From the IMG/VR virus record IMGVR_UViG_3300028534_000003, positions 33,090 to 97,089 of that record: DNA of 64,000 nucleotides; one strand, 5' to 3'. Positions 19,729 to 42,411 of this stretch are shown piece by piece. Both the position numbers and the translations under genes were made by a program. The number at the start of each line of letters is the position of its first letter. Position 1 is the first letter of the stretch. The notes under the pieces were generated by a model. That model ran no database searches. It was given only the letters and a program-made list of their open reading frames with translations, and had not been told where the DNA came from. The DNA is from a virus (lineage: Duplodnaviria > Heunggongvirae > Uroviricota > Caudoviricetes).

Positions 19729-20946
19729 TTATTTCCTTTGTAGTTGTTGATAATCACGAGTTGTTCCAATAAATAAATCACACTTACTACGCATACGAGA
19801 AATTGCTACGTATATGTATCGAAGTTGTGCATTGAGTGAGATTGGATTGTTGTACTTATTCTTCGGAGTTGTATATGCTGAAGTTATATCATTGAGGTCA
19901 ACAAATACATGCTCGACAGATGAACCCTGTGTTTTAGTTATAGTGGCTGCGTATGAATACTTGAAATTAAAACACTTGTCTAATGCTTTATGGTATCCTT
20001 TGTAGTCTCGCTTGTCCTTGAACTGCTGTAGTTGAGCTTCCAGTGTTGGTTTGTGTAGGAAGTGAAATACTTCAAACTGCTCACCGTGATTATTAGTTAC
20101 AAGTAATTTGTAATAAGTTGGCTCATGCTCAATTACTTCAGTTATAGTTGCTATTGTCTGGTTGGCTGCTGCTCCAAGTGGTTTGTCAATAATTACTTGA
20201 TCACCAGGTTCAAATAGTGCTGAAGGATGGATGTTGTAATTGTACTTGTCGACTTTGGTGTTACGGTAAGCCACAACTAGTTTGTCAGATTGACAGTTGT
20301 TGTATGCTTGACAGAATTCCTTATGCGATTGGTGATAAGTGAACTCAGGTACAGTTGGATCATACGGATCAAAGAATTGATTATTCTCGATTGCTGTACG
20401 GAGGTTAGCGAAGTACGATTGAAGCTGTGGTGATGCTGATGACTGCCTCATCTGCTCAGTAAGTTGAATTACTGTTGGATTAAGTGTAGTAAAATCAGGC
20501 TGTATTCCTATTGCTTCAAGTTGAATTAGGTCACCAAGTAACACTAGTTGTTGTACTGTACCATCCGTTAGACACTGTACTATACGTTCAAACAATGGCT
20601 GGGTTAACATAGAGATTTCATCAATCACTAAAAGATTAGTTGGAGTAATTGGTTTCTCGTTACCGTCACGATCACGCTTAGGTACGAGCTGTTTATGGTA
20701 ACCTATATTGGACATAACCATTTCGAGGTATGAGTGAATAGTACGAGCTTGTAAGCCAGTAGCGTCATTGATAGCTCCGCAGGCTTTATGAGATAGTGCA
20801 GTTACCACATATGATGATGAGTAATCTGCAAGTATCTGTTGGAGTGAATAAGTCTTACCACAGCCAGCTTCACCAAGACACATAACTACACGATCACCAC
20901 GATGAACTGCATCATAGAATTGCTGTTGTCCACTGTTAAGTGCCAT
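19729..20946 (-). CDS. Dda/RecD-like SF1B DNA helicase
   Basis: Walker A (GEAGCGKTYS), LVIDEISM (Walker B) and ATITKTQGSSVEHVFV (motif V/VI of RecD/Dda). Confidence 0.65.
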   Translation of the reverse strand: MALNSGQQQFYDAVHRGDRVVMCLGEAGCGKTYSLQQILADYSSSYVVTALSHKACGAINDATGLQARTIHSYLEMVMSNIGYHKQLVPKRDRDGNEKPITPTNLLVIDEISMLTQPLFERIVQCLTDGTVQQLVLLGDLIQLEAIGIQPDFTTLNPTVIQLTEQMRQSSASPQLQSYFANLRTAIENNQFFDPYDPTVPEFTYHQSHKEFCQAYNNCQSDKLVVAYRNTKVDKYNYNIHPSALFEPGDQVIIDKPLGAAANQTIATITEVIEHEPTYYKLLVTNNHGEQFEVFHFLHKPTLEAQLQQFKDKRDYKGYHKALDKCFNFKYSYAATITKTQGSSVEHVFVDLNDITSAYTTPKNKYNNPISLNAQLRYIYVAISRMRSKCDLFIGTTRDYQQLQRK

Positions 20947-22640
20947 TAGAATCTCCTAATTTGAGATATAATTGTGTTTTCAAGCCGGACTGGATCCATA
21001 GGGTGGGTCCAATAATTGTTTATGTCGTGAATAAGATCAATAATGTTATCATTGTCCATACCAAGTTCATGAGCTCTATGAGCTGCCCAGATTAGTTTAC
21101 GAGAACCCTCACCATGCTCAGCATTGTAGGCTGGGCTAAATGTACCCATAGGATCAGATAGTAGTGCAGCTGCCTCAGCTTTGGTTGGTGGTTTAGTTGG
21201 CTTAGGCTTACTGGCTACTGCAGACTCAGCCATTAGAATATGGTCTTTAACATCTAGAGGTGATTGATCAGTTACAGAGTAAACAGGTCTACCAGCATAC
21301 GAGAAATAAATTTGCGATTGAGGTAAACGATCAGCTTGCAGTTGAAGTGAGTCAGCTATTGATTGGATAAAGTACGGCCATGCTTCAGGTGATAATGATA
21401 CAATTGAGTCTAGTTCTAGCAATACTCTGAACTTGAAATCATTGTCAGGATCAGATGTAAGAGCTATGTGATGGTTAATGTCTTGGAGGATACTATGACA
21501 TTCAGATGCAGTAATTAATGATGTATCTATGTCGAGTACAATCCAATTAGTTCCACCACGTAGGTTAGCTTTAGAACGCTTACCATCAACAAATTCAAAT
21601 GGTGAATATGCGAAATCACCTTGTAACATTGTTGCAAGATCAGCAAAGGTAGTAGGTGCATAAGTAAAGTTCTGCGAGCACTGTTTGGCACGTACTTCCT
21701 TCGAACCAGATACTGGTAAGAAAGAAATATGTGGTTCAGCTTCACGGATAAGTTCCTCGTAGCAAATTCCATCACCACAAAGCTTGTAAGTGGCATTATT
21801 ATCAAATGAGTTAGATAATTGAACTAATTCAGTTAATTTAGCTTTAGTAACAGGTGCAGTTATATACCCCATCTTCTGTAGTATGTGCAATGATATAGTT
21901 GCTTTACCATCATCAGCTTTAGCACGCATAAATGAACAGAATAGCTCATGCTTGCCTTTTACGAACTCAGACTCAAATAACGCCATATCCTTATCAAGTA
22001 CTTCACAGAAATTAATAGCTTCAACGTAGTCAGATAATTCAATTTGTTCATGCTGATTAAATAATGCTAGTGCACCAGATAGTTTCAATGCTTTCCATTG
22101 TAGGTGAGCTCGAACCAGTGCTGATAATGGATAAGCTTTCGACATTGATTGAGATAATCGTTTGTTGTATGCTTTGTAGATGATGAATAGCTTACGAACA
22201 TCAGCTGATACTGGCAGTGGTTCACCAACTAGTGGTAAATATGCTTCTGTAATTGCTTGAACACCAGAGTTAACTTGGTTACGAACTGCAATTGCTTTGT
22301 CTTCAAGTTCCTCTTCAGCTTCTATCATAGCTGTTACTGACTCATAGTTAGGTTCAGGTAATTCATCAGGTACAAAGCAGAAGAATGACCTACGAGCTAG
22401 CTTAGAGTTGAATTCCTTCTTGAATCGTTGTTTAACTGCATTGTCATAGAGAATTGGTTCCTGTGCTCCCATGAATAGTGCTGATACAGGTAATGATACT
22501 AATGGTTTAAGTTGTTCAGACTTGTCACCAATTAGCTTAACTTCTTTCGAGCCAGTATCATATACTTCAGACATATACTTCATAAGTTCATCGATGTTGC
22601 CAGTGCCAAGCTCTGTCGTGAATTCCGTTATATTCAACAC
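20946..22640 (-). CDS. Putative primase / replication initiation protein (AEP-like?)
   Basis: 564 aa with a WIVLDIDT (hhhDhD-like) motif and an H.H motif downstream. It is translationally coupled to the Dda-like helicase. Weak call. Confidence 0.3.
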   Translation of the reverse strand: MLNITEFTTELGTGNIDELMKYMSEVYDTGSKEVKLIGDKSEQLKPLVSLPVSALFMGAQEPILYDNAVKQRFKKEFNSKLARRSFFCFVPDELPEPNYESVTAMIEAEEELEDKAIAVRNQVNSGVQAITEAYLPLVGEPLPVSADVRKLFIIYKAYNKRLSQSMSKAYPLSALVRAHLQWKALKLSGALALFNQHEQIELSDYVEAINFCEVLDKDMALFESEFVKGKHELFCSFMRAKADDGKATISLHILQKMGYITAPVTKAKLTELVQLSNSFDNNATYKLCGDGICYEELIREAEPHISFLPVSGSKEVRAKQCSQNFTYAPTTFADLATMLQGDFAYSPFEFVDGKRSKANLRGGTNWIVLDIDTSLITASECHSILQDINHHIALTSDPDNDFKFRVLLELDSIVSLSPEAWPYFIQSIADSLQLQADRLPQSQIYFSYAGRPVYSVTDQSPLDVKDHILMAESAVASKPKPTKPPTKAEAAALLSDPMGTFSPAYNAEHGEGSRKLIWAAHRAHELGMDNDNIIDLIHDINNYWTHPMDPVRLENTIISQIRRF

Positions 22641-22782
22641 ACGTCGTTAATGTGTGCCCGTCAGTTAATGACTGCTGTATATTTCTATACAGACTAGACT
22701 ATATCTTTATCGCTTTGCAATTTAAGCATTGTTTTATTAAAATTATGGTACTATATAAATATATTATGCTAAAGGATAATAA

Positions 22783-23604
22783 ATGGAAGAAATATGGGTA
22801 CCAATTAAAGGTAGAGAAGAGTACTATGAAGTATCAAACCTAGGTAGAGTTAGGACATTATTTGGTAGAGTAAACAAATTAAATGAACCAAAAATAATGA
22901 TAGGTAGAGCATATACTGCTAGTCAAACTAAATATAATCAAGTTAAGTTAAGTAATGGTGGAAAACCAGAGTACTCCTTAGTACATCGATTAGTAGCTGA
23001 AGCTTTCATACCAAATCCAGAAAATAAACCATTTGTTAATCATATAGATAATAATGGATTAAATAATAATCATACTAATTTAGAATGGTGCACACAGTCA
23101 GAAAACCTAAAGCATGCTCAAAAGCAAGGTAGGTTGTTTGAAGCCCAATCTAAAGGCGGTAAAGCTCAACGAGATTTAGTAAGAACTAACGCTAAAGAAA
23201 TAGCTAGTAATCTGGTTGGCACACAGTATTATAAATGGACTGTTACTAATTATTTAGGGATAAAGCACCATAACAGAGAATACATAGAATGTACATGTGA
23301 GTGTGGTGCTAAAGTTGATATGTATTATATAACTATTATTAACGGTAAAGCTAGTCATAGTTGTAAGCAATGCGCTAAAACAGATGCTAAGGATAAATAC
23401 ATCAAAGAAATACTTAATGATATAAAAGATACTTCAGTAAATAATTGGGTATTTACAGGCAATGCTGTAGGCTATAATAAAAATTTAACAACTACAAAAC
23501 AATTAAAGTTAGAGGCTGTATGTAGTTGTTGTGGTAATGTTGACAGTCTTCCGTATGCCAAATTACCTAAAGTAAAACAATGTTTAAATTGCAAAGTACG
23601 ATAA
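22783..23604 (+). CDS. Free-standing HNH homing endonuclease (NUMOD4 + HNH_3 type)
   Basis: N-terminal WVPIKGREEYYEVSNLGRVRT (NUMOD4), then VHRLVAEAFIPNPENKPFVNHIDNNGLNNNHTNLEW (HNH_3). It is the lone + strand gene inside the minus-strand block. Confidence 0.7.
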   Translation: MEEIWVPIKGREEYYEVSNLGRVRTLFGRVNKLNEPKIMIGRAYTASQTKYNQVKLSNGGKPEYSLVHRLVAEAFIPNPENKPFVNHIDNNGLNNNHTNLEWCTQSENLKHAQKQGRLFEAQSKGGKAQRDLVRTNAKEIASNLVGTQYYKWTVTNYLGIKHHNREYIECTCECGAKVDMYYITIINGKASHSCKQCAKTDAKDKYIKEILNDIKDTSVNNWVFTGNAVGYNKNLTTTKQLKLEAVCSCCGNVDSLPYAKLPKVKQCLNCKVR

Positions 23605-23908
23605 CTCCCGTTTCGGATCACTTGATCCTACGTGCTATGCACTAGTCGTTGAACGTTACACATACTGCCGTTGCAGGTTAGTGTCTTCGCTGCTGATTGT
23701 CCGTTAGTGATATAGACTTCACTTTATAAGTATTTCTACTTATATTAGCGCTATATCCTCTTGGGAGTTCCCAGCAATTAGAGAGTTACAAAGTCGTATA
23801 TTACTATACGACAGGGCTAGTAATATATACATCATAATAATTATTTAATATGCTATCATTTGTTTATTTTCATCACATATTAAATAAATATTACTAGGTA
23901 TATACATA

Positions 23909-24424
23909 TTAACCCGAGTAGACAAAACCACCACCGATTCCTGAAGCTTCAAGAGCATTAAAGTGCTTATGTAGGCCCTTGATTGATGAGTCAGGTGCAG
24001 CGAATAGTTCATCAGGTTCGACGTAGTATTTGCTATAGTTTTCGTGCAAGTAAGGTTGATCACAACCATCAAGTGAAGCTAGTTTGACTGCTTGTTGTAC
24101 AGCTATTTCTAGTCGCTTTTCATTGATGAGTTGATATCCAGCAGAGAAGCACTTACGAGCATAGTTTACACCAGAGTCCTTGCCGATACCAGAACCAGCA
24201 ATTACAAATGAGATTGAATTAACTGGAATAGATCCACCATCCCAATGAGCTATGTTTCTACGAAGATGAGATGCATAAAGCATGATTTCGGATACAGCTA
24301 TTGTTTGTTTGAATCGAAGTGGTACATTGATTGGAATAGAATCAACTATACGATTTATTATTGGTGGCAGGTTATTAGTTAGAGCACCTGCTTGCTCAAG
24401 AGTTGCTTTTAATTCAGGTAGCAT
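23909..24424 (-). CDS. Hypothetical protein downstream of the DNA polymerase
   Basis: 171-aa ORF with no recognisable motif. Confidence 0.4.
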   Translation of the reverse strand: MLPELKATLEQAGALTNNLPPIINRIVDSIPINVPLRFKQTIAVSEIMLYASHLRRNIAHWDGGSIPVNSISFVIAGSGIGKDSGVNYARKCFSAGYQLINEKRLEIAVQQAVKLASLDGCDQPYLHENYSKYYVEPDELFAAPDSSIKGLHKHFNALEASGIGGGFVYSG

Positions 24425-24436
24425 AGTCCTCCTTTG

Positions 24437-24871
24437 TTAGTGTGTTTCAGACCAATTAAGGCCTATAGAATAGTCAGCTTCAATTGGAATATTCATATTA
24501 AATTGCTCAGTTACTAGTGAACAACCATTTACAATGTGCCGTCCAAGTGTACCAGCTAAGTCAGGTTTTACAGCACACTGATACTCATCATGTACAAATA
24601 CCATTTGATACCAATCAATACCTTCAGTAAGAGTTGGAGCTGCTAGATTGTGGAAGTTAATTGCCCATTGCTTAGCTATTATTCCGGCTGATCCCTGTAG
24701 TAGTAAGTTAAGGGCTGAGTGAGGCGATTTAGAGATTAATTCACGCCCATCAATAGCTGTAACTGTCCCTTTTGTTTTAGATTGAGTTGAACAATCAGCT
24801 ATTAATTCGTTAATACCATCCATACGAGCTAAGAAGTTATCAGCTACTTGCTTACCATAGATGGTTTCCAT
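24437..24871 (-). CDS. DNA polymerase (family A), 3' exon / C-terminal segment
   Basis: The translation begins (M)ETIYGKQ, which completes motif B (FG..YG). It contains LLQGSAGIIAKQW and motif C VFVHDEYQ. Confidence 0.7.
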   Translation of the reverse strand: METIYGKQVADNFLARMDGINELIADCSTQSKTKGTVTAIDGRELISKSPHSALNLLLQGSAGIIAKQWAINFHNLAAPTLTEGIDWYQMVFVHDEYQCAVKPDLAGTLGRHIVNGCSLVTEQFNMNIPIEADYSIGLNWSETH

Positions 24872-26221
24872 AATTAGACGCTCAGTTGGTTTAACGAATT
24901 CATCCTTACGAAGTGGGAATAAGCCAGCTTCGTTAAGTCTACGATTGATTGATTTAACTGCAATGTCGTAATCCTGTTGTGTAAATTCTAATGTTGTTAT
25001 TGAATTAGATGCCTCATACCCGTATGATGACGATCCAGTTGTACTTGTTGTTGTGTTAGTCCATACTATTATTGAGCCATCACTTAAAACATGGCCTCGT
25101 ATTGTATGGCCTTGCCCATATAAATCATTGTCTTCAGTAATGGTCGCAACACCATTACCCGTTCTCTTATGAACTGCTATATATTTCTATACAGATGAGA
25201 CTATATCATCACCCTCAGCATTATCTGTTAGGGGCAAACCGCTTCCATCACCATTAGCTTGTGATGTACTCCCTTCCGGGATAGTCGTTACACTTTCTCT
25301 ATTTAAAAATTTATCATTATATACACGCTTTACAGCGTATGGTACTCGTTTAATTATGGCTTTAGCCACAGCTTTTGTTATACCATACTTGTCTACTATA
25401 TTATGTACTTTATAATCATTATCATAGTAATCTATTAAAATACTTAGTATAGTATCATCAGGTACTGAATACTTACGTGATTTTCTTGTAATATGCTCAT
25501 CACTATTACTAAATGAATAGTGAGGTTTATTTAGGTAGTCAATAGCTTTTTGTAGTGTCTCTACAGAATCTTTTAATTGACCTAAGGCTGTGTTACATGT
25601 ATGACAAAGTAATCCTCTAACATCCCCTGAAGTATGACAATGGTCAATTACTAGTGGCATTGTTAGAGATTTAGCAGAGTTTGTCATATATCCTGTATAT
25701 CCACATATACTACATTTACCATCTTGTTCAATATACATATCTATATAGTCATCTAGTGACATATTATAATTACGTTGAAGCCAAGCATTAGCTAGGCCTT
25801 TACTAGCGCATTTATCTGAACAATAGTGTTCAGATGGTGCTTTTGGTGTAAATGTATTATTACATATTCTACATGCCTTATCTTTAAAGTACCCTTGTGG
25901 ATACTTAGAAGCAGAGGCTGTTTGATCTTTCTTAATTCTTAAATGCTTACCTGTACTAGGTAAAGGTACTTCATGTCTTTCCATAATATTATTCCTTAAT
26001 AGTTTTATGGAGTGTAACATGTAATTTATTAAATAGAGCTTAGCTCGGGATTGTCTTTAACTTAATAATAAGATGTCCCCCGAATTCAATTTGTTTACTT
26101 ATACACTATTTCTAGTGTAACCGGTCATTTATACATTAATACACTTAGTACACTTACTACTATCATTTGTCTATTCTCATCATAGTAATTGTATTAGTAT
26201 ATTGGAACAATGTAATGTTCA
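24869..26221 (-). mobile_element. Putative group I intron interrupting the DNA polymerase gene, carrying a homing endonuclease ORF
   Basis: The polymerase reading frame stops (TGA) straight after FFFG and resumes with ETIYG 1.35 kb downstream. The upstream exon ends in U and the insert ends in G. The insert has GC-richer structured flanks around an HNH ORF. Confidence 0.5.
25187..26020 (-). CDS. Intron-encoded HNH endonuclease of the Endonuclease VII (T4 gp49-like) type
   Basis: LVIDHCHTSGDVRGLLCHTCNTALG signature plus Zn-finger-like CRICN..C..C at the N-terminus. Confidence 0.65.
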   Translation of the reverse strand: MLHSIKLLRNNIMERHEVPLPSTGKHLRIKKDQTASASKYPQGYFKDKACRICNNTFTPKAPSEHYCSDKCASKGLANAWLQRNYNMSLDDYIDMYIEQDGKCSICGYTGYMTNSAKSLTMPLVIDHCHTSGDVRGLLCHTCNTALGQLKDSVETLQKAIDYLNKPHYSFSNSDEHITRKSRKYSVPDDTILSILIDYYDNDYKVHNIVDKYGITKAVAKAIIKRVPYAVKRVYNDKFLNRESVTTIPEGSTSQANGDGSGLPLTDNAEGDDIVSSV

Positions 26222-27721
26222 ACCGAAAAAGAATTTTTTACTCAAAGCTCTGGCTGCTTTCATTTCTGGTGTGGCTGTATGCTCATCCCAATCACAATCA
26301 TTTTTAGTCCAGAATCCAGCTACTTTTGCATGATACCAATGCATATCTTTAGATAATACAGCTTCAGCATACTTACCATTGTCATATGGGTATAAGTAGT
26401 GAGCTAATACACGTATTTCAATATTTTTAAGATCTGCTCCAAGTAATACAAAATCAGGTGGTGCAGTGAATAATGCCCTATACTTAGGGTCAGCATCAAT
26501 TTGGGCAAGATTAGGCTTTGTATGAGTTGCACGATGTGTTATTGCTCCTATTGTGTCACACTTGCCATGGATTGAATGCGTAATTGGGTTAAATCTAGCT
26601 ATCCAACTATTATCAGTTGTTGATAAGGATGATAGGGATTTCTTTACTTTCATAAGCTTAATAAGATCCTCACCATAGGATCCAAGACGCTTGAGGTCAT
26701 CTCTATCAACCTTAACATTACCTTTAGCTGTATACGTGTTGAACTCAAAATCATATAATGCTTTAAGCCATAGTTTAATTTGATTATCAGTGCCAGTAAA
26801 TTTAGTGAGTTTAATATTCTGGAATTCACCATTTTTCTCAACAAAGATTAGTCTGTGAGGTACTGAGAACCACTGGTACTTAGACTTTGCTGGTAGTTTC
26901 AGTTTGCCAGATTTAAATCGTTTTAATGGTCTAGTATATTGATGAACTGGATCCCACTTGATAAATGATGGATCAGGTATATACTGCCTGCGTCGGATTA
27001 GTTTGTTGGTTTTCTGTGGCTTCCCATCAGGCAAGAATCGAGGTTTGAATGTTTTAGATAATTTGAATTCAAGCTTCTGTCGTTCAAATAATAATGATGT
27101 ATTAAGTTTACGAGCTGCTTCTATGTCGAAATAGAATCCATAACGCTCCTGATCACCTATGATAGCTGCTATTGAATTCTCAAGTTCAATTACATTAGTT
27201 GCTGGAAAGCTAGGCATCGATTCAAGCTTGGTTAGTAATGCATAGGTTACTTCAACATCCTGCTTACAATAGTCAACCATTTCAGTAGTTAACTTAGACC
27301 AGTCATCGTATGAGCCCTTGTAAAGGCCAAGACGACGTCCAAATGCATCCAATGAGTATGAACCATACAATGCAGATGGAAAGTCTTCTATACCCATATC
27401 CATGCCAATAAGGTGCTCTTTAGGAAACATAATCTTAGCAAGTAACATAGTGTCGAGATGACTAGTGTTAAAGTTAAGATTGAAATAGGTTGATAAGTAT
27501 GGGATGTCGAATTTCATACCATTGTGGTGAACTAATTGGTCACAGTTAGATATGGTTCGAATGAATGCTTTTAGGCTACCATCAGAGTTAGGTAACCAAT
27601 GCGAGGTGAAGCACTGAGTTGGTTGTGGTTCACCATCGATCTCAAGCTTACATCCGATACAATGGATAATGCCATTGATATCAAATCCGTTGGTTTCAAT
27701 GTCAATTATTGCTCTCGTCAT
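26219..27721 (-). CDS. DNA polymerase (family A), 5' exon: 3'-5' exonuclease plus N-terminal polymerase domain
   Basis: Exo I (IIDIETNG), polymerase motif A region, and the translation ends ...RALSKKFFFG (the first half of motif B) immediately before the stop. Confidence 0.75.
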   Translation of the reverse strand: MTRAIIDIETNGFDINGIIHCIGCKLEIDGEPQPTQCFTSHWLPNSDGSLKAFIRTISNCDQLVHHNGMKFDIPYLSTYFNLNFNTSHLDTMLLAKIMFPKEHLIGMDMGIEDFPSALYGSYSLDAFGRRLGLYKGSYDDWSKLTTEMVDYCKQDVEVTYALLTKLESMPSFPATNVIELENSIAAIIGDQERYGFYFDIEAARKLNTSLLFERQKLEFKLSKTFKPRFLPDGKPQKTNKLIRRRQYIPDPSFIKWDPVHQYTRPLKRFKSGKLKLPAKSKYQWFSVPHRLIFVEKNGEFQNIKLTKFTGTDNQIKLWLKALYDFEFNTYTAKGNVKVDRDDLKRLGSYGEDLIKLMKVKKSLSSLSTTDNSWIARFNPITHSIHGKCDTIGAITHRATHTKPNLAQIDADPKYRALFTAPPDFVLLGADLKNIEIRVLAHYLYPYDNGKYAEAVLSKDMHWYHAKVAGFWTKNDCDWDEHTATPEMKAARALSKKFFFG

Positions 27722-28256
27722 GTTGCTCCTTTGTCAAGTACCAATGTTTGATTAGAAATGCTTCAGCAATACCATCCTCAGTAGACTTGAATTGGCGAGA
27801 TAATAGCGATGAAGCTAAGTCAAGTGATAATTGCTTGTCTTTGGACAGGTTGAGGTCAGACTTCCACTTATGAGGTGCTACAGTGATGGTTTGCAATTGA
27901 AGTAGTTCAGCTATTGCTAATAGCTTGCCATAGTTACGATTAGTAGTTGCTGTAGTACGAGCTGAATTACCACGAGAAATACCAGGTGTTTCAATAATGA
28001 GATGAGTGTGATTAGTTAGTAACTGATGGATTGCTATTGTATCAAGCTCACGATGAGTTTTCGCTGGTGTGTGTAGCTTGTACTTAGGTTGGCCTTTGTT
28101 AGGCCCAGACTTATAATACTGCTTCTTGCCATTGAGTAGTGCTAATGTATAACGGGCTGGTTTATCTACTACCGTTGTAGTTGGCATCGGATGAAGTGAA
28201 TTATCACTTAGACAAATACCACCACTAAGTCCAGGATCAATAGCTGCTACTGTCAT
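27702..28256 (-). CDS. RuvC-like Holliday junction resolvase
   Basis: N-terminal AIDPGLSGGI (RuvC GIDPG motif). Length is 184 aa. Confidence 0.5.
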   Translation of the reverse strand: MTVAAIDPGLSGGICLSDNSLHPMPTTTVVDKPARYTLALLNGKKQYYKSGPNKGQPKYKLHTPAKTHRELDTIAIHQLLTNHTHLIIETPGISRGNSARTTATTNRNYGKLLAIAELLQLQTITVAPHKWKSDLNLSKDKQLSLDLASSLLSRQFKSTEDGIAEAFLIKHWYLTKEQHDESNN

Positions 28257-42117: not shown

Positions 42118-42411
42118 TTAAATGTTTAATGTTAGTTTAGTAACATAGTGGCTATAAAAATCCTTATATGGTATGTAAATTAAGTCATTTTTACTAGCCC
42201 TACCCCAATTGTACATAAATGAAATACTAGACCCACTATCATAGACTATATCATTACAGTGTACAAAAACTTTAGCTCTAGTTCTTCTTATGTCCTCTAG
42301 AGGCTCATTATAACATATTGCTAGTATTTGGCATAATTCTTCTGCTGTATTTACACCAGTTACAGCTAAGCCTCGTATGAAACCATTATCATCACGTGTT
42401 GGTAAGTTCAT
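42118..42411 (-). CDS. LTLNI-family small paralog 3
   Basis: FIRGLAVT...FMYNW...YKDFYSHY..KLTLNI. Confidence 0.45.
   Translation of the reverse strand: MNLPTRDDNGFIRGLAVTGVNTAEELCQILAICYNEPLEDIRRTRAKVFVHCNDIVYDSGSSISFMYNWGRASKNDLIYIPYKDFYSHYVTKLTLNI

What the first reader, a model, noticed from the sequence alone, without database searches (positions are those of the whole stretch)
24437..27721. Family A DNA polymerase gene split within motif B by a 1.35-kb group I-like intron that carries an Endonuclease VII-type HNH gene
Exon 1 ends ...RALSKKFFFG followed by TGA. An ORF 1.35 kb downstream begins (M)ETIYGKQ and continues through motif C (VFVHDEYQ). Joining GGU|GAA gives ...FFFGETIYG..., which restores the R...K...FG..YG O-helix motif. 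Joining at GGU|ACC would give the canonical two-residue spacing FFFGTIYG, but then the insert would end in A rather than G.

For the GGU|GAA junction the upstream exon ends in U and the insert ends in G, as group I splicing requires. The insert is GC-richer than its surroundings, has paired segments such as UCGGGGGACA...CAAUCCCGAGC, and encodes an HNH protein with the DHCH..G.VRGLLC..CN..LG signature.

Intron insertion inside the catalytic O-helix codons of a polymerase is a classic homing site.
Basis: partly seen in the sequence, partly recalled or inferred. Interest (0 to 1): 0.55.

Follow-up and report, generated by a model that had tools for sequence, protein, structure and literature searches.

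The report
Self-splicing intron in phage DNA polymerase

Summary
The core observation holds. On the minus strand, a family A DNA polymerase gene stops after ...KKFFFG inside motif B, and an Endonuclease VII-type HNH gene lies in the insert.

The boundaries were wrong.

The intron is 26220..25126 (1095 nt, not 1353). Splicing GGU U|...AAUG|AU UUA gives FFFGYLYGQG and a 729-aa protein.

Four other metagenomic alleles carry an orthologous intron at the same site. All group I helices (P1-P10, with P7.1/P7.2 joined by GUA, so IA2-type) pair and covary. The endonuclease ORF sits in the P6 loop.

This is a new member of a known kind, apparently at an undescribed insertion site.

Two extras:
- The neighbouring primase gene has a second IA2-like intron whose HNH gene lies on the opposite strand, in P8.
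- Both introns carry, at the apex of a long P1 extension, an invariant 23-nt sequence between freely covarying arms. About 44 metagenomic phage introns share it. It matches no Rfam family and no sequenced phage isolate. Its function is unknown.

The parts
26221..27721 (-). DNA polymerase exon 1 (1501 nt). It encodes residues 1-500 plus the first base of Tyr501. It ends ...UUC GGU U, and the in-frame UGA is made of the last exon base plus the first two intron bases.
   Evidence: ORF and Pfam DNA_pol_A/RNase_H_2. Homologue alignment A1. Junction script.
25126..26220 (-). Group I intron, IA2-type, 1095 nt (a multiple of 3). It starts GAACAUU... and ends ...GAAGACAAUG, with the terminal G (omega-G) at 25126.
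   Evidence: Splicing here gives FFFGYLYGQG, the homologue consensus. Four orthologous same-site introns exist. All helices pair and covary. RF00028 gives sub-threshold hits here, and ORF-less relatives L001/L002 score 79.7/83.3 bits.
24437..25125 (-). DNA polymerase exon 2 (689 nt including the stop). It begins AU UUA UAU GGG (..Y LYGQGHTIRG...) and contains motif C (VFVHDEYQ). It has no start codon of its own for its first 86 codon positions.
   Evidence: Pfam DNA_pol_A on the C-terminal part. T7 DNA polymerase is the closest solved relative.
26221..26226 (-). P1, exon strand UCGGUU. U26221 forms the U.G wobble at the 5' splice site.
   Evidence: Pairs with the guide GACCGG in all five alleles. 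Changes are compensatory: exon GGU vs GGG matches guide A vs C. P1 forms in the minimum-free-energy fold.
26121..26135 (-). Internal guide sequence. UGUAUAAAU (26135..26127) pairs with the start of exon 2 (P10). GACCGG (26126..26121) pairs with the end of exon 1 (P1).
   Evidence: P10 AUUUAU/AUAAAU is invariant in five alleles and extends to 9 bp in the window. P1 covaries.
26136..26220 (-). P1 extension. This ~85-nt insert in the P1 loop is absent from the four other same-site alleles. It folds as a long interrupted stem on top of P1.
   Evidence: Alignment A2/A3. Fold.
26154..26188 (-). Apical hairpin module of the P1 extension. Arms are UUACUA (26188..26183) and UAGUAA (26159..26154), around the 23-nt sequence UGAUGAGAAUAGACAAAUGAUAG (26182..26160).
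   Evidence: The same 23-mer occurs in the neighbouring primase intron and in about 44 metagenomic or viral group I introns with different, complementary arms. Function unknown.
26102..26119 (-). P2 hairpin UACACUA-GAAA-UAGUGUA.
   Evidence: Present in the window and L006, absent in L005/L007/L009.
26029..26093 (-). Core 5' half: P3 5' strand CAAAUUG (26093..26087), P4 UCGGG (26083..26079), P5 UCUU/AAGA (26073..26054), P4' CCCGA (26049..26045), P6 5' strand CUCUAUUUAA (26038..26029).
   Evidence: Weak RF00028 hit at 26083..26019.
25187..25984 (-). Homing-endonuclease gene of the Endo VII / DHHRN type (265 aa from ATG 25984, preceded by AAGGA). The longest ORF starts at ATG 26020 (277 aa). It lies in the P6 loop and its last ~37 codons read through P6', P7, P7.1, P7.2, P3', P8 and P7' to a UAG in the P9 loop.
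   Evidence: Pfam PF02945 E 5.6e-23. PHROG 'endonuclease VII' families. PDB matches Hpy99I and T4 endo VII. 46-48% identical to the ORFs of the four other same-site introns, which start MDRxxIP.P.TGK and stop in the P7.1 loop. RBS context.
25126..25306 (-). Core 3' half: P6' (25306..25297), J6/7 + P7 GACUA (25286..25282), P7.1 (25281..25270), GUA, P7.2 (25266..25246), P3' CGGUUUG (25241..25235), P8 (25233..25212), J8/7 UGAUGAUA, P7' UAGUC (25203..25199), P9 (25194..25177), P9.1 (25174..25161), P9.2 (25158..25137), tail UGAAGACAAUG.
   Evidence: RF00028 hit. 82-98% nucleotide identity of 25297..25144 to intron cores in Vibrio, Staphylococcus, Streptococcus, Enterococcus and Lactococcus phages. 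Helix table and pair counts.

Best explanation
The window holds a phage family A (T7-like fold) DNA polymerase gene on the minus strand. A 1095-nt mobile group I intron of subgroup IA2 (26220..25126) interrupts it after the first base of codon 501. That position lies between the FG and the YLYG of the O-helix motif R..K...FG..YG.

Inferred mechanism, following the standard group I pathway:
- The guide GACCGG pairs with the exon end UCGGUU (P1), with U26221.G at the cleavage site.
- An exogenous guanosine bound in P7 attacks after U26221.
- The adjacent guide AUAAAU pairs with the first bases of exon 2 (P10), and the freed exon-1 3'-OH attacks after the intron's terminal G (omega-G, 25126).
- This ligates ...UUC GGU U|AU UUA UAU GGG... 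and yields a 729-aa polymerase with an intact O-helix (FFFGYLYGQG).
- Ribosomes translating unspliced RNA stop at the UGA formed across the 5' splice site.

The P6 loop carries a gene for an Endo VII-motif (DHHRN) HNH endonuclease. This enzyme presumably cuts or nicks intron-less polymerase alleles near TTC TTT GGN TAY TTA TAY GG, so that repair copies the intron in (homing).

Shown here: the exon junctions, the helices and their covariation, the orthologous introns, the intron-less alleles and an intact endonuclease motif. Inferred: actual splicing, endonuclease activity and target.

The intron's P1 helix is extended by about 85 nt. The extension is capped by a conserved hairpin module whose role is unknown.
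For: 1. Junction. Full-length uninterrupted homologues (697-725 aa) read ...SK.FFFGYLYGQGDTIRG...LFPL.KD..V....LIL.TIYGK.VAD. The window's exon-1 end and the open frame 25125..24872 align to this without a gap. The spliced product is 729 aa with one stop.

2. Orthologues. Four independent alleles (L005, L006, L007/L008, L009) have polymerase N-terminal ORFs ending ...FFFG, an Endonuclease_7 ORF and a C-terminal piece. The same splice rule gives FFFGYLYGQG in all of them. An intron-less allele, L010, reads TTC TTC TTT GGA TAC TTA TAC GGT.

3. Structure. P1, P10, P2-P9.2 all form in all five alleles.
- On the structural alignment A3, 99.2% of cells pair, against 33-41% when partners are slid.
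- 36 of 89 pairs show changes on both sides, and 0 of 500 shuffles reach the observed values.
- P1 covaries with a synonymous exon change (GGU/GGG against guide A/C).
- P7.1 and P7.2 are joined by GUA, the IA2 hallmark cited in PMC3428280.

4. Family. RF00028 hits the window core at E 3.3e-6. ORF-less relatives share 82-98% identity with 25297..25144 and score 79.7 and 83.3 bits, above the gathering score.

5. Endonuclease. Pfam, PHROG and PDB matches. CxxC, DH.H, R and CxxCN are all invariant across the five orthologous ORFs, matching the DHHRN definition in PMC6083498.

6. No alternative expression route.
- Eight in-frame stops cross the insert.
- Exon 2 has no ATG/GTG/TTG for its first 86 codon positions.
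Against: - No RNA data, so splicing is not demonstrated.
- Rfam does not reach its gathering score in the window (33 bits against 50). The 722-nt ORF loop in P6 and the 85-nt P1 extension can explain this, but it remains sub-threshold.
- The covariation alignment A3 has only five related sequences. It was fitted by hand to the proposed helices, with the P6 loop replaced by NNNN, so it leans towards the structure.
- The P1 loop is unusually long. In the window only, the endonuclease ORF reads through most of the catalytic core, which might interfere with folding or indicate some decay.
- Pfam alone does not discriminate the two junctions strongly (86.3 against 80.5 bits).
Confidence: 0.88

Rival explanations
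1. One reading: a 1353-nt intron from 26221 to 24869, with GGU|GAA ligation giving FFFGETIYG.
For: - The upstream exon would end in U and the insert in G.
- The called ORF starts at ATG 24871.
- Pfam DNA_pol_A aligns this product in a single stretch at 80.5 bits.
Against: - Homologues contain both FFFGYLYGQG and, about 85 residues later, LILxTIYGK. The 86 codons this version removes are conserved polymerase sequence.
- The product would be 643 aa, against 697-725 aa in homologues.
- The conserved ribozyme ends at 25126 in all five alleles. P10 pairs with AUUUAU at 25125, not with GAAACC.
- The FG..YG spacing would be non-canonical.
Confidence: 0.02
2. A naturally split or broken polymerase. 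The insert is a decayed intron or a simple endonuclease-gene insertion that no longer splices, and two polypeptides (or none) are made.
For: - No RNA evidence.
- Rfam is sub-threshold.
- The long P1 insert and the ORF read-through into the core are peculiar to the window.
Against: - Every helix is intact in the window. The guide matches the window's own exon variant (GGU with GACCGG), which means it is maintained by selection.
- Exon 2 has no start codon or RBS near its 5' end, and the O-helix would be cut between FG and YLYG.
- The polymerase exons show no other damage.
- The same P1 module sits in many apparently intact introns.
Confidence: 0.07
3. An in-frame protein-level insertion: an intein, or translational read-through of the insert. 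The insert length (1095 nt) is a multiple of three and exon 1, the HNH ORF and exon 2 share one frame.
For: - All three ORFs are in the same frame.
- Other members of this polymerase family do carry inteins at a different site, after THRC.
Against: - Eight in-frame stop codons cross the insert.
- There are no intein termini: no Cys/Ser/Thr at the start and no HN + Cys/Ser/Thr at the end.
- The RNA structure covaries.
Confidence: 0.01
4. The intron splices, but the endonuclease is no longer an active homing enzyme, so the intron is fixed and immobile.
For: - The window ORF has a 25-37 aa extra tail encoded by the ribozyme core.
- Activity was not tested.
Against: - The catalytic and zinc-binding residues are invariant among five orthologues that are only 46-48% identical, which implies purifying selection.
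- Intron-plus and intron-minus alleles coexist in the polymerase family.
Confidence: 0.2

Closest known systems
Group IA2 introns with HNH endonuclease genes in phage family A DNA polymerase genes: SPO1 (I-HmuI), SP82, Bastille (I-BasI), PhiI/W31 (I-TslI), phiL7, Pf-WMP3 (I-PfoP3I). Source: PMC3428280; also PMC11878797.
   Same: - Same host gene class.
- Same ribozyme subgroup, with P7.1/P7.2 joined by GUA.
- The ORF starts in the P6 region and runs into the core.
- A stop codon sits at the 5' splice site.
- The insertion lies in a highly conserved catalytic segment of the fingers/palm.
   Different: - Insertion site. The published sites are 674/676 (PNLQN region) and 881 (motif C) in E. coli Pol I numbering.
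- This one lies in the codon after the O-helix FG. By my own mapping of RRSAKAINFGLIYG, from memory and not tool-tested, that is about position 764.
- The endonuclease is Endo VII/DHHRN type, not the classical HNH of I-HmuI/I-PfoP3I.
- No nucleotide similarity to these introns beyond the generic core.
[quoted passage not shown] Source: PMC6083498.
   Same: CX2-4C ... DH(D)H ... R ... CX2C-N catalytic motif, encoded in a group I intron of a phage DNA polymerase gene.
   Different: - The window protein has DHCH rather than DHDH. The paper reports the third position as non-essential.
- It has an extra N-terminal CxxC...HYC..C segment and a C-terminal putative DNA-binding region.
- Its relationship to those particular proteins was not measured here.
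Phage T4 td intron (IA2) with I-TevI. Comparison from established knowledge.
   Same: - Order of helices: P1-P2-P3-P4-P5-P6[ORF]-P7-P7.1-P7.2-P3'-P8-P7'-P9-P9.1-P9.2.
- Endonuclease ORF looped out of P6.
- Protein-coding host gene of nucleotide/DNA metabolism.
   Different: - GIY-YIG enzyme instead of Endo VII type.
- No long P1 extension and no conserved P1 apical hairpin.
ORF-less introns in Vibrio phage 1.063.O (MG592441) and phage HSd1 primase/helicase (PQ867849).
   Same: - 82-98% identity to the window's P7-P9.2 region.
- Same helix set.
- Rfam RF00028 scores of 79.7 and 83.3 bits.
   Different: - Different host genes.
- No endonuclease ORF.
- No P1 module.

Membership tests
Group I intron (Rfam RF00028) | P1 formed by the exon end and an internal guide, with a U.G wobble at the 5' splice site | tested here: met
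   UCGGUU pairs with GACCGG, with U26221.G. Conserved in five alleles with two compensatory positions. Forms in the minimum-free-energy fold.
Group I intron (Rfam RF00028) | Terminal guanosine (omega-G) at the 3' end, and P10 pairing of the guide with the 3' exon | tested here: met
   The intron ends ...AAUG at 25126 in all five alleles. AUUUAU pairs with AUAAAU directly 5' of the P1 guide.
Group I intron (Rfam RF00028) | Conserved core P3-P4-P5-P6 and P7-P3'-P8-P7' with J8/7 (GAUAUAGUC) and the pseudoknot topology | tested here: met
   All helices identified. 99.2% of cells pair, against 33-41% when slid. 36 of 89 pairs have double changes (hand-fitted alignment of 5 sequences).
Group I intron (Rfam RF00028) | Score at or above the curated Rfam gathering threshold (50 bits) | tested here: not met
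   33 bits, E 3.3e-6 in the window. ORF-less close relatives reach 79.7 and 83.3 bits. The shortfall is attributable to the 722-nt P6 loop and the 85-nt P1 extension splitting the model.
Group I intron (Rfam RF00028) | Guanosine-dependent self-splicing with exon ligation | not testable with these tools
   Needs RT-PCR or in-vitro splicing.
Subgroup IA2 | Extra hairpins P7.1 and P7.2 between P7 and P3', linked by G-U-A (criterion as stated in PMC3428280) | tested here: met
   UCCC-GGAA-GGGA / GUA / CAUCAC-...-GUGAUG at 25281..25246. Both covary.
Family A DNA polymerase | Motifs A, B (R..K...FG..YG) and C (HDE) in order, with a Pfam DNA_pol_A match | tested here: met
   Spliced product: PF00476 at 86.3 bits. 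Motif B RALSKKFFFGYLYG is restored only by splicing. VHDEYQ is present. T7 DNA polymerase is the best PDB match, E 5e-20.
Endo VII-motif (DHHRN) homing endonucleases | CX2-4C ... D-H-x-H ... R ... CX2C-N | tested here: met
   GKCSIC ... DHCH ... VRG ... CHTCN, invariant in five orthologues. PF02945 E 5.6e-23. Motif definition from PMC6083498.
Endo VII-motif (DHHRN) homing endonucleases | Site-specific cleavage of the intron-less allele, and homing | not testable with these tools
   Indirect support only: intron-plus and intron-minus alleles coexist in the polymerase family.

The most novel reading that the evidence does not exclude
The apex of the intron's P1 extension may be a previously undescribed, sequence-invariant RNA module.

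Anatomy: a hairpin whose arms vary freely but always pair, around the 23-nt sequence UGAUGA-N-AAUA-N-ACAAAUGAUA-R.

Distribution:
- It occurs in both introns of this phage.
- It occurs in about 44 other uncultured-phage group I introns, inserted at five or more host-gene sites.
- It is absent from orthologous introns at the very same site.

This pattern fits an optional accessory element that recruits a trans-acting factor (a protein or another RNA) or makes a specific tertiary contact that helps P1 docking or regulates splicing.
Probability: 0.4. Interest if true: 0.6.

Novelty: new member of a known kind. Interest (0 to 1): 0.4.

Why it matters
For annotation:
- The polymerase of this phage, and of at least four related metagenomic phages, is a single 729-aa protein. 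It is not the 500-aa + 144-aa pair that gene callers report.
- The real exon 2 starts 257 nt upstream of the called ORF.
- The same correction applies to the neighbouring primase.

For intron biology:
- The site (between FG and YLYG of the O-helix) adds an insertion site to the three listed for phage family A polymerases in the paper I could read.
- This polymerase family appears to be a hot spot, with at least three intron sites plus an intein site.

The one part that could matter beyond bookkeeping is the invariant 23-nt hairpin at the tip of the P1 extension. It is shared by dozens of otherwise different phage introns and is unknown to Rfam. A conserved accessory of this kind usually marks a binding partner, and it is directly testable by deletion in a splicing assay.

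Tried and rejected
Intron detection and relatives:
- Rfam at gathering threshold on the whole window: no hit. E-value mode was needed.
- Megablast of the locus against 50,697 phage genomes: only the 150-nt ribozyme core matches. There is no close isolate. The best polymerase match by tblastn is 29% identical.
- A possible third intron suggested by TGATATAGTCT at 42243..42253: it lies inside an ordinary ORF and has no Rfam hit. Rejected.

Readings of the P1 module that I rejected:
- Hammerhead core. There is no conserved C before UGAUGA and no stem II.
- C/D-box-like kink-turn. The required register conflicts with the observed covariation of the innermost arm pairs.
- Conserved mini-ORF (AUG ARA AUA NAC AAA UGA). 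The two variable positions change the amino acid, and downstream frames differ.
- Promoter for the endonuclease gene. The primase intron's gene is on the other strand, and covarying arms argue for RNA.

Conservation of the 23-mer:
- Relaxed pattern scans tested whether its conservation is an artefact of exact-pattern ascertainment.
- Variants in the first 4 or the middle 6 positions have no flanking stems and are chance or coding matches.
- Only G23->A occurs with stems.
- A search for the module in isolate phage genomes gave only chance-level partial matches. Two were inspected and are coding sequence.

Dead ends:
- The contig of primase fragment P0181 has no DNA on record.
- Bonocora & Shub 2004 and 2009 are not held in the library.
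- Pfam cannot by itself decide between the two junctions.


Full report
**What is in the sequence.** All features are on the minus strand.
- ORF 27721..26219 (500 aa) carries an RNase H-like exonuclease domain and the N-terminal half of Pfam DNA_pol_A. It ends ...EMKAARALSKKFFFG followed by TGA.
- ORF 26020..25187 (277 aa) is an Endonuclease_7 protein (PF02945, E 5.6e-23).
- An ORF called from ATG 24871 to 24437 (144 aa) carries the C-terminal part of DNA_pol_A, including VFVHDEYQ.

**Where the exon really resumes.**
- The frame of the 144-aa ORF stays open for another 105 codons upstream, as far as the TAG that ends the HNH ORF. An ORF lister cannot show this because the stretch contains no ATG, GTG or TTG.
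- In alignment A1 these homologues read ...SK.FFFGYLYGQGDTIRG..LW...Y...EY..A.KRI.KRL...LFPL.KD..V....LIL.TIYGK.VAD.FL.
- The window's 'extra' frame (..LYGQGHTIRGHVL...QQDYDIAVKSINRRLNEAGLFPLRKDEFVKPTERLIMETIYGKQVADNFL) aligns along its whole length.
The true motif B is FFFG-YL-YG.

**The junctions.**
- Only one pair of sites restores the homologue sequence and obeys the group I rules.
- Exon 1 ends at U26221, the first base of the TGA. The intron ends at G25126. Exon 2 starts AU UUA UAU GGG.
- The split codon U|AU is Tyr, giving FFFGYLYGQGHTIRG.
- The intron is 1095 nt. The spliced ORF is 729 codons with a single terminal stop.

**Orthologous introns.**
- Several database homologues are N-terminal fragments that also end in ...FFFG (P0020, P0046, P0052, P0053).
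- Their contigs (L005, L006, L007/L008, L009) show the same architecture: polymerase N-terminal part, Endonuclease_7 ORF of 234-240 aa, polymerase C-terminal part.
- With the same rule (GGN U| ... UG|AUUUAUA) each gives FFFGYLYGQG. Intron lengths are 962-999 nt.
- An intron-less allele (L010, protein P0002) reads TTC TTC TTT GGA TAC TTA TAC GGT at the site.

**Ribozyme structure.**
- I split the five introns into helices by hand, and the pieces reassemble exactly to the sequences.
- Every helix of a group I intron is present: P1, P10, P2, P3, P4, P5, P6, P7, P7.1, P7.2, P8, P9, P9.1 and P9.2. P2 occurs in the window and L006 only.
  - P1 is exon UCGGUU with guide GACCGG, with U.G at the splice site.
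  - P10 is exon-2 AUUUAU with AUAAAU immediately 5' of the guide, extending to 9 bp in the window.
  - The endonuclease ORF sits in the P6 loop.
- I made a structural alignment in which gaps are written as N so that MAFFT keeps my columns and the P6 loop is replaced by NNNN. On it:
  - 99.2% of 398 cells are standard pairs, against 33-41% when the 3' partners are slid by 1-3 columns.
  - 36 of 89 pairs change on both sides.
  - No shuffle out of 500 reaches the observed values.
- Caveat: there are five related sequences and the alignment is fitted to the structure.
- The most telling single case is P1. The window has exon GGU and guide GACCGG. The others have GGG and GCCC(A/G)A.
- P7.1 and P7.2 joined by G-U-A is the criterion for subgroup IA2 quoted in PMC3428280.

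**Independent support for family membership.**
- Rfam's RF00028 hits 25346..25177 at 33 bits (E 3.3e-6) and weakly hits 26083..26019. Both are below the gathering score of 50, and nothing in the window passes at gathering level.
- The only part of the locus with nucleotide matches in phage genomes is 25297..25144, the P7.1-P9.2 core.
- Two of those matches are ORF-less introns: Vibrio phage 1.063.O, and phage HSd1 between two 'primase/helicase' fragments. They reach 79.7 and 83.3 bits.
- The window's low score is what one expects when 722 nt of ORF and an 85-nt P1 extension split the model.

**The endonuclease.**
- It matches PHROG 'endonuclease VII' families, and in the PDB it matches Hpy99I and T4 endonuclease VII.
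- The likely start is ATG 25984 (MERHEVPLPSTGK..., preceded by AAGGA). This corresponds to the MDRxxIPxPxTGK starts of the four orthologues.
- The five proteins are only 46-48% identical, yet they keep an N-terminal CxxC...HYCSD.C, then QDGKC.IC, DH(D/C)H, VRGLLCHTCN.ALGQ.
- That is the CX2-4C/DHxH/R/CX2C-N pattern that defines the DHHRN (Endo VII-motif) homing endonucleases. [quoted passage not shown]
- In the four orthologues the ORF stops at a UAA in the P7.1 loop. In the window that loop is GGAA, and the ORF runs on to a UAG in the P9 loop, adding a tail encoded by the ribozyme core.

**Rivals.**
- Read-through or an intein is excluded by eight in-frame stops.
- A non-splicing split gene cannot be excluded without RNA. 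It is unlikely because the guide tracks the window's own exon sequence, all helices are intact, and exon 2 has no start signal.
- The claim that the insert is GC-richer is not borne out.

**Comparison with what is known.**
- Group IA2 introns with HNH genes in phage family A polymerase genes are well documented: SPO1, SP82, Bastille, PhiI/W31, phiL7 and Pf-WMP3 (PMC3428280), and many Bastillevirinae (PMC11878797).
- The sites listed there are 674, 676 and 881 in E. coli Pol I numbering.
- The present site is the codon after the O-helix FG. By my own mapping from memory of RRSAKAINFGLIYG (not tool-tested) this is about codon 764, which would be a different site.
- A full-text search for a phage intron at the O-helix returned nothing, but the library is incomplete.
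- My verdict is a new member of a known kind.

**Second intron (noticed).**
- The next gene downstream is a primase-like protein (phrog_2135) split into ORFs 24424..23909 and 22640..20946.
- RF00028 hits 23840..23544 (43.5 bits, E 2e-9) and 22709..22677 (28.2 bits) on the minus strand.
- Joining GGU(23912)|...G(22626)|GAA gives GGGFVYSG-EFTTELG. This aligns without a gap to full-length homologues (GIGGGFVYSGEIGTEL), and the spliced ORF is 730 aa.
- This intron also has P7.1-GUA-P7.2.
- Its HNH_3/NUMOD4 endonuclease gene (22783..23604; phrog_59, E 1e-42) lies in the P8 loop but on the opposite strand. A 22-bp P8 stem closes the loop.
- Antisense endonuclease genes are described for nuclear rDNA group I introns (PMC3679873). 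I found no phage example in the papers searched.

**The P1 module (unexplained).**
- Compared with its four orthologues, the window's polymerase intron has about 85 extra nucleotides in the P1 loop. They fold as an extension of P1.
- At the apex lies UGAUGAGAAUAGACAAAUGAUAG between the arms UUACUA and UAGUAA.
- The primase intron has the same 23-mer with two transitions, at the same distance from its 5' splice site, between different arms (UUAAUAUG and CAUAUUAA).
- Exact-pattern scans (TGATGANAATANACAAATGATAG) found 5 viral, 49 metagenomic and 5 genome-collection loci.
- Of 52 unique instances, about 44 have uninterrupted complementary arms of 5-16 bp with unrelated sequences. The other eight have no arms and lie in coding sequence.
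- On a natural, ungapped alignment of 46 instances, the 8 arm pairs are 85.6% paired, against 30-52% when slid. The covariation score is 0.911 against 0.227 in shuffles, and 0 of 500 shuffles reach it.
- Ten of twenty short loci have an RF00028 hit immediately 3' on the same strand.
- The sequences show the arrangement 5' splice site, long stem, module, guide, P2, P3/P4.
- The host sites seen are:
  - three sites in this polymerase family (the GRLSS..P| site, SKDMHW| and FFFG|);
  - the primase;
  - a gene ending ..PEVSTEELSG|.
- Relaxing the pattern block by block in the viral collection produced no stem-flanked variants except G23->A. That variant keeps a U1-N23 pair.
- The module has no Rfam match and no match in 50,697 isolate phage genomes.
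- I could not assign a function. Hammerhead, kink-turn, mini-ORF and promoter readings do not fit. It is optional within one orthologous intron lineage yet present twice in this genome. That pattern suggests an accessory that works with a trans-acting partner, or that spreads between co-resident introns.

**Verdict.**
- The finding is real but ordinary in kind.
- Its anatomy needed correction: intron 26220..25126, with exon 2 starting at 25125.
- The P1 module is the only element with real novelty potential.

Noticed in passing
window 20946..24424 (minus strand); intron 23911..22626; HNH_3/NUMOD4 ORF 22783..23604 (plus strand): The primase-like gene next to the polymerase is split by a second IA2-like group I intron of 1286 nt. 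Rfam RF00028 gives 43.5 and 28.2 bits, both below the gathering score. Splicing gives GGGFVYSG|EFTTELG, ungapped against full-length homologues. Its HNH endonuclease gene sits in the P8 loop on the strand opposite to the intron and host gene. That arrangement is known from nuclear rDNA introns, but I did not find it described for phage introns.
   Followed up: partly
window 26188..26154 and 23883..23845 (minus strand); loci L011-L064 and L067: An invariant 23-nt sequence, UGAUGA-N-AAUA-N-ACAAAUGAUA-R, lies between freely covarying arms at the apex of a long P1 extension. It is present in both introns of this phage and in about 44 metagenomic or viral group I introns at five or more host-gene sites. 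It is absent from the four orthologous same-site introns, from Rfam and from isolate phage genomes. Function unknown.
   Followed up: partly
proteins P0023, P0024, P0045, P0050 (inteins after ..THRC); P0038, P0060, P0062 and locus L032 (stop after ..SKDMHW); L006 3020..3620 and P0035/P0036 (break after ..WHN.DT.EKG.V): This metagenomic polymerase family looks like a hot spot for selfish elements. Besides the FFFG| site there seem to be at least two further intron-like interruption sites and an intein site. L006 carries two interruptions in one gene.
   Followed up: partly
window 25060..24960 (exon 2, residues ~515-550 of the spliced protein): Relative to most homologues, the window's polymerase has a ~23-residue Thr/Ser-rich insertion (..SDGSIIVWTNTTTSTTGSSSYGYEASNSITTLEF..) just after motif B. 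A similar WTNTTT segment is in P0049. The corresponding place in L006/P0035/P0036 is where their second interruption sits.
   Followed up: no
window 25306..25187 (minus strand): The window's endonuclease ORF lacks the stop codon that the four orthologues have in the P7.1 loop (UAAU/UAAC/UGAC against GGAA here). It therefore reads on through P7.2, P3', P8 and P7' to a UAG in the P9 loop. About 37 codons are dictated by ribozyme core sequence.
   Followed up: partly
window 27702..28256 (minus strand): The gene immediately upstream of the polymerase, overlapping its start, matches a PHROG Holliday-junction resolvase family (phrog_1770, E 3e-19). The phage therefore has a separate candidate resolvase, and the Endo VII-like protein in the intron need not serve that role.
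   Followed up: no
locus L005 1832..2596: A reverse-transcriptase (RVT_1) gene lies about 900 nt upstream of the intron-containing polymerase in one related contig.
   Followed up: no
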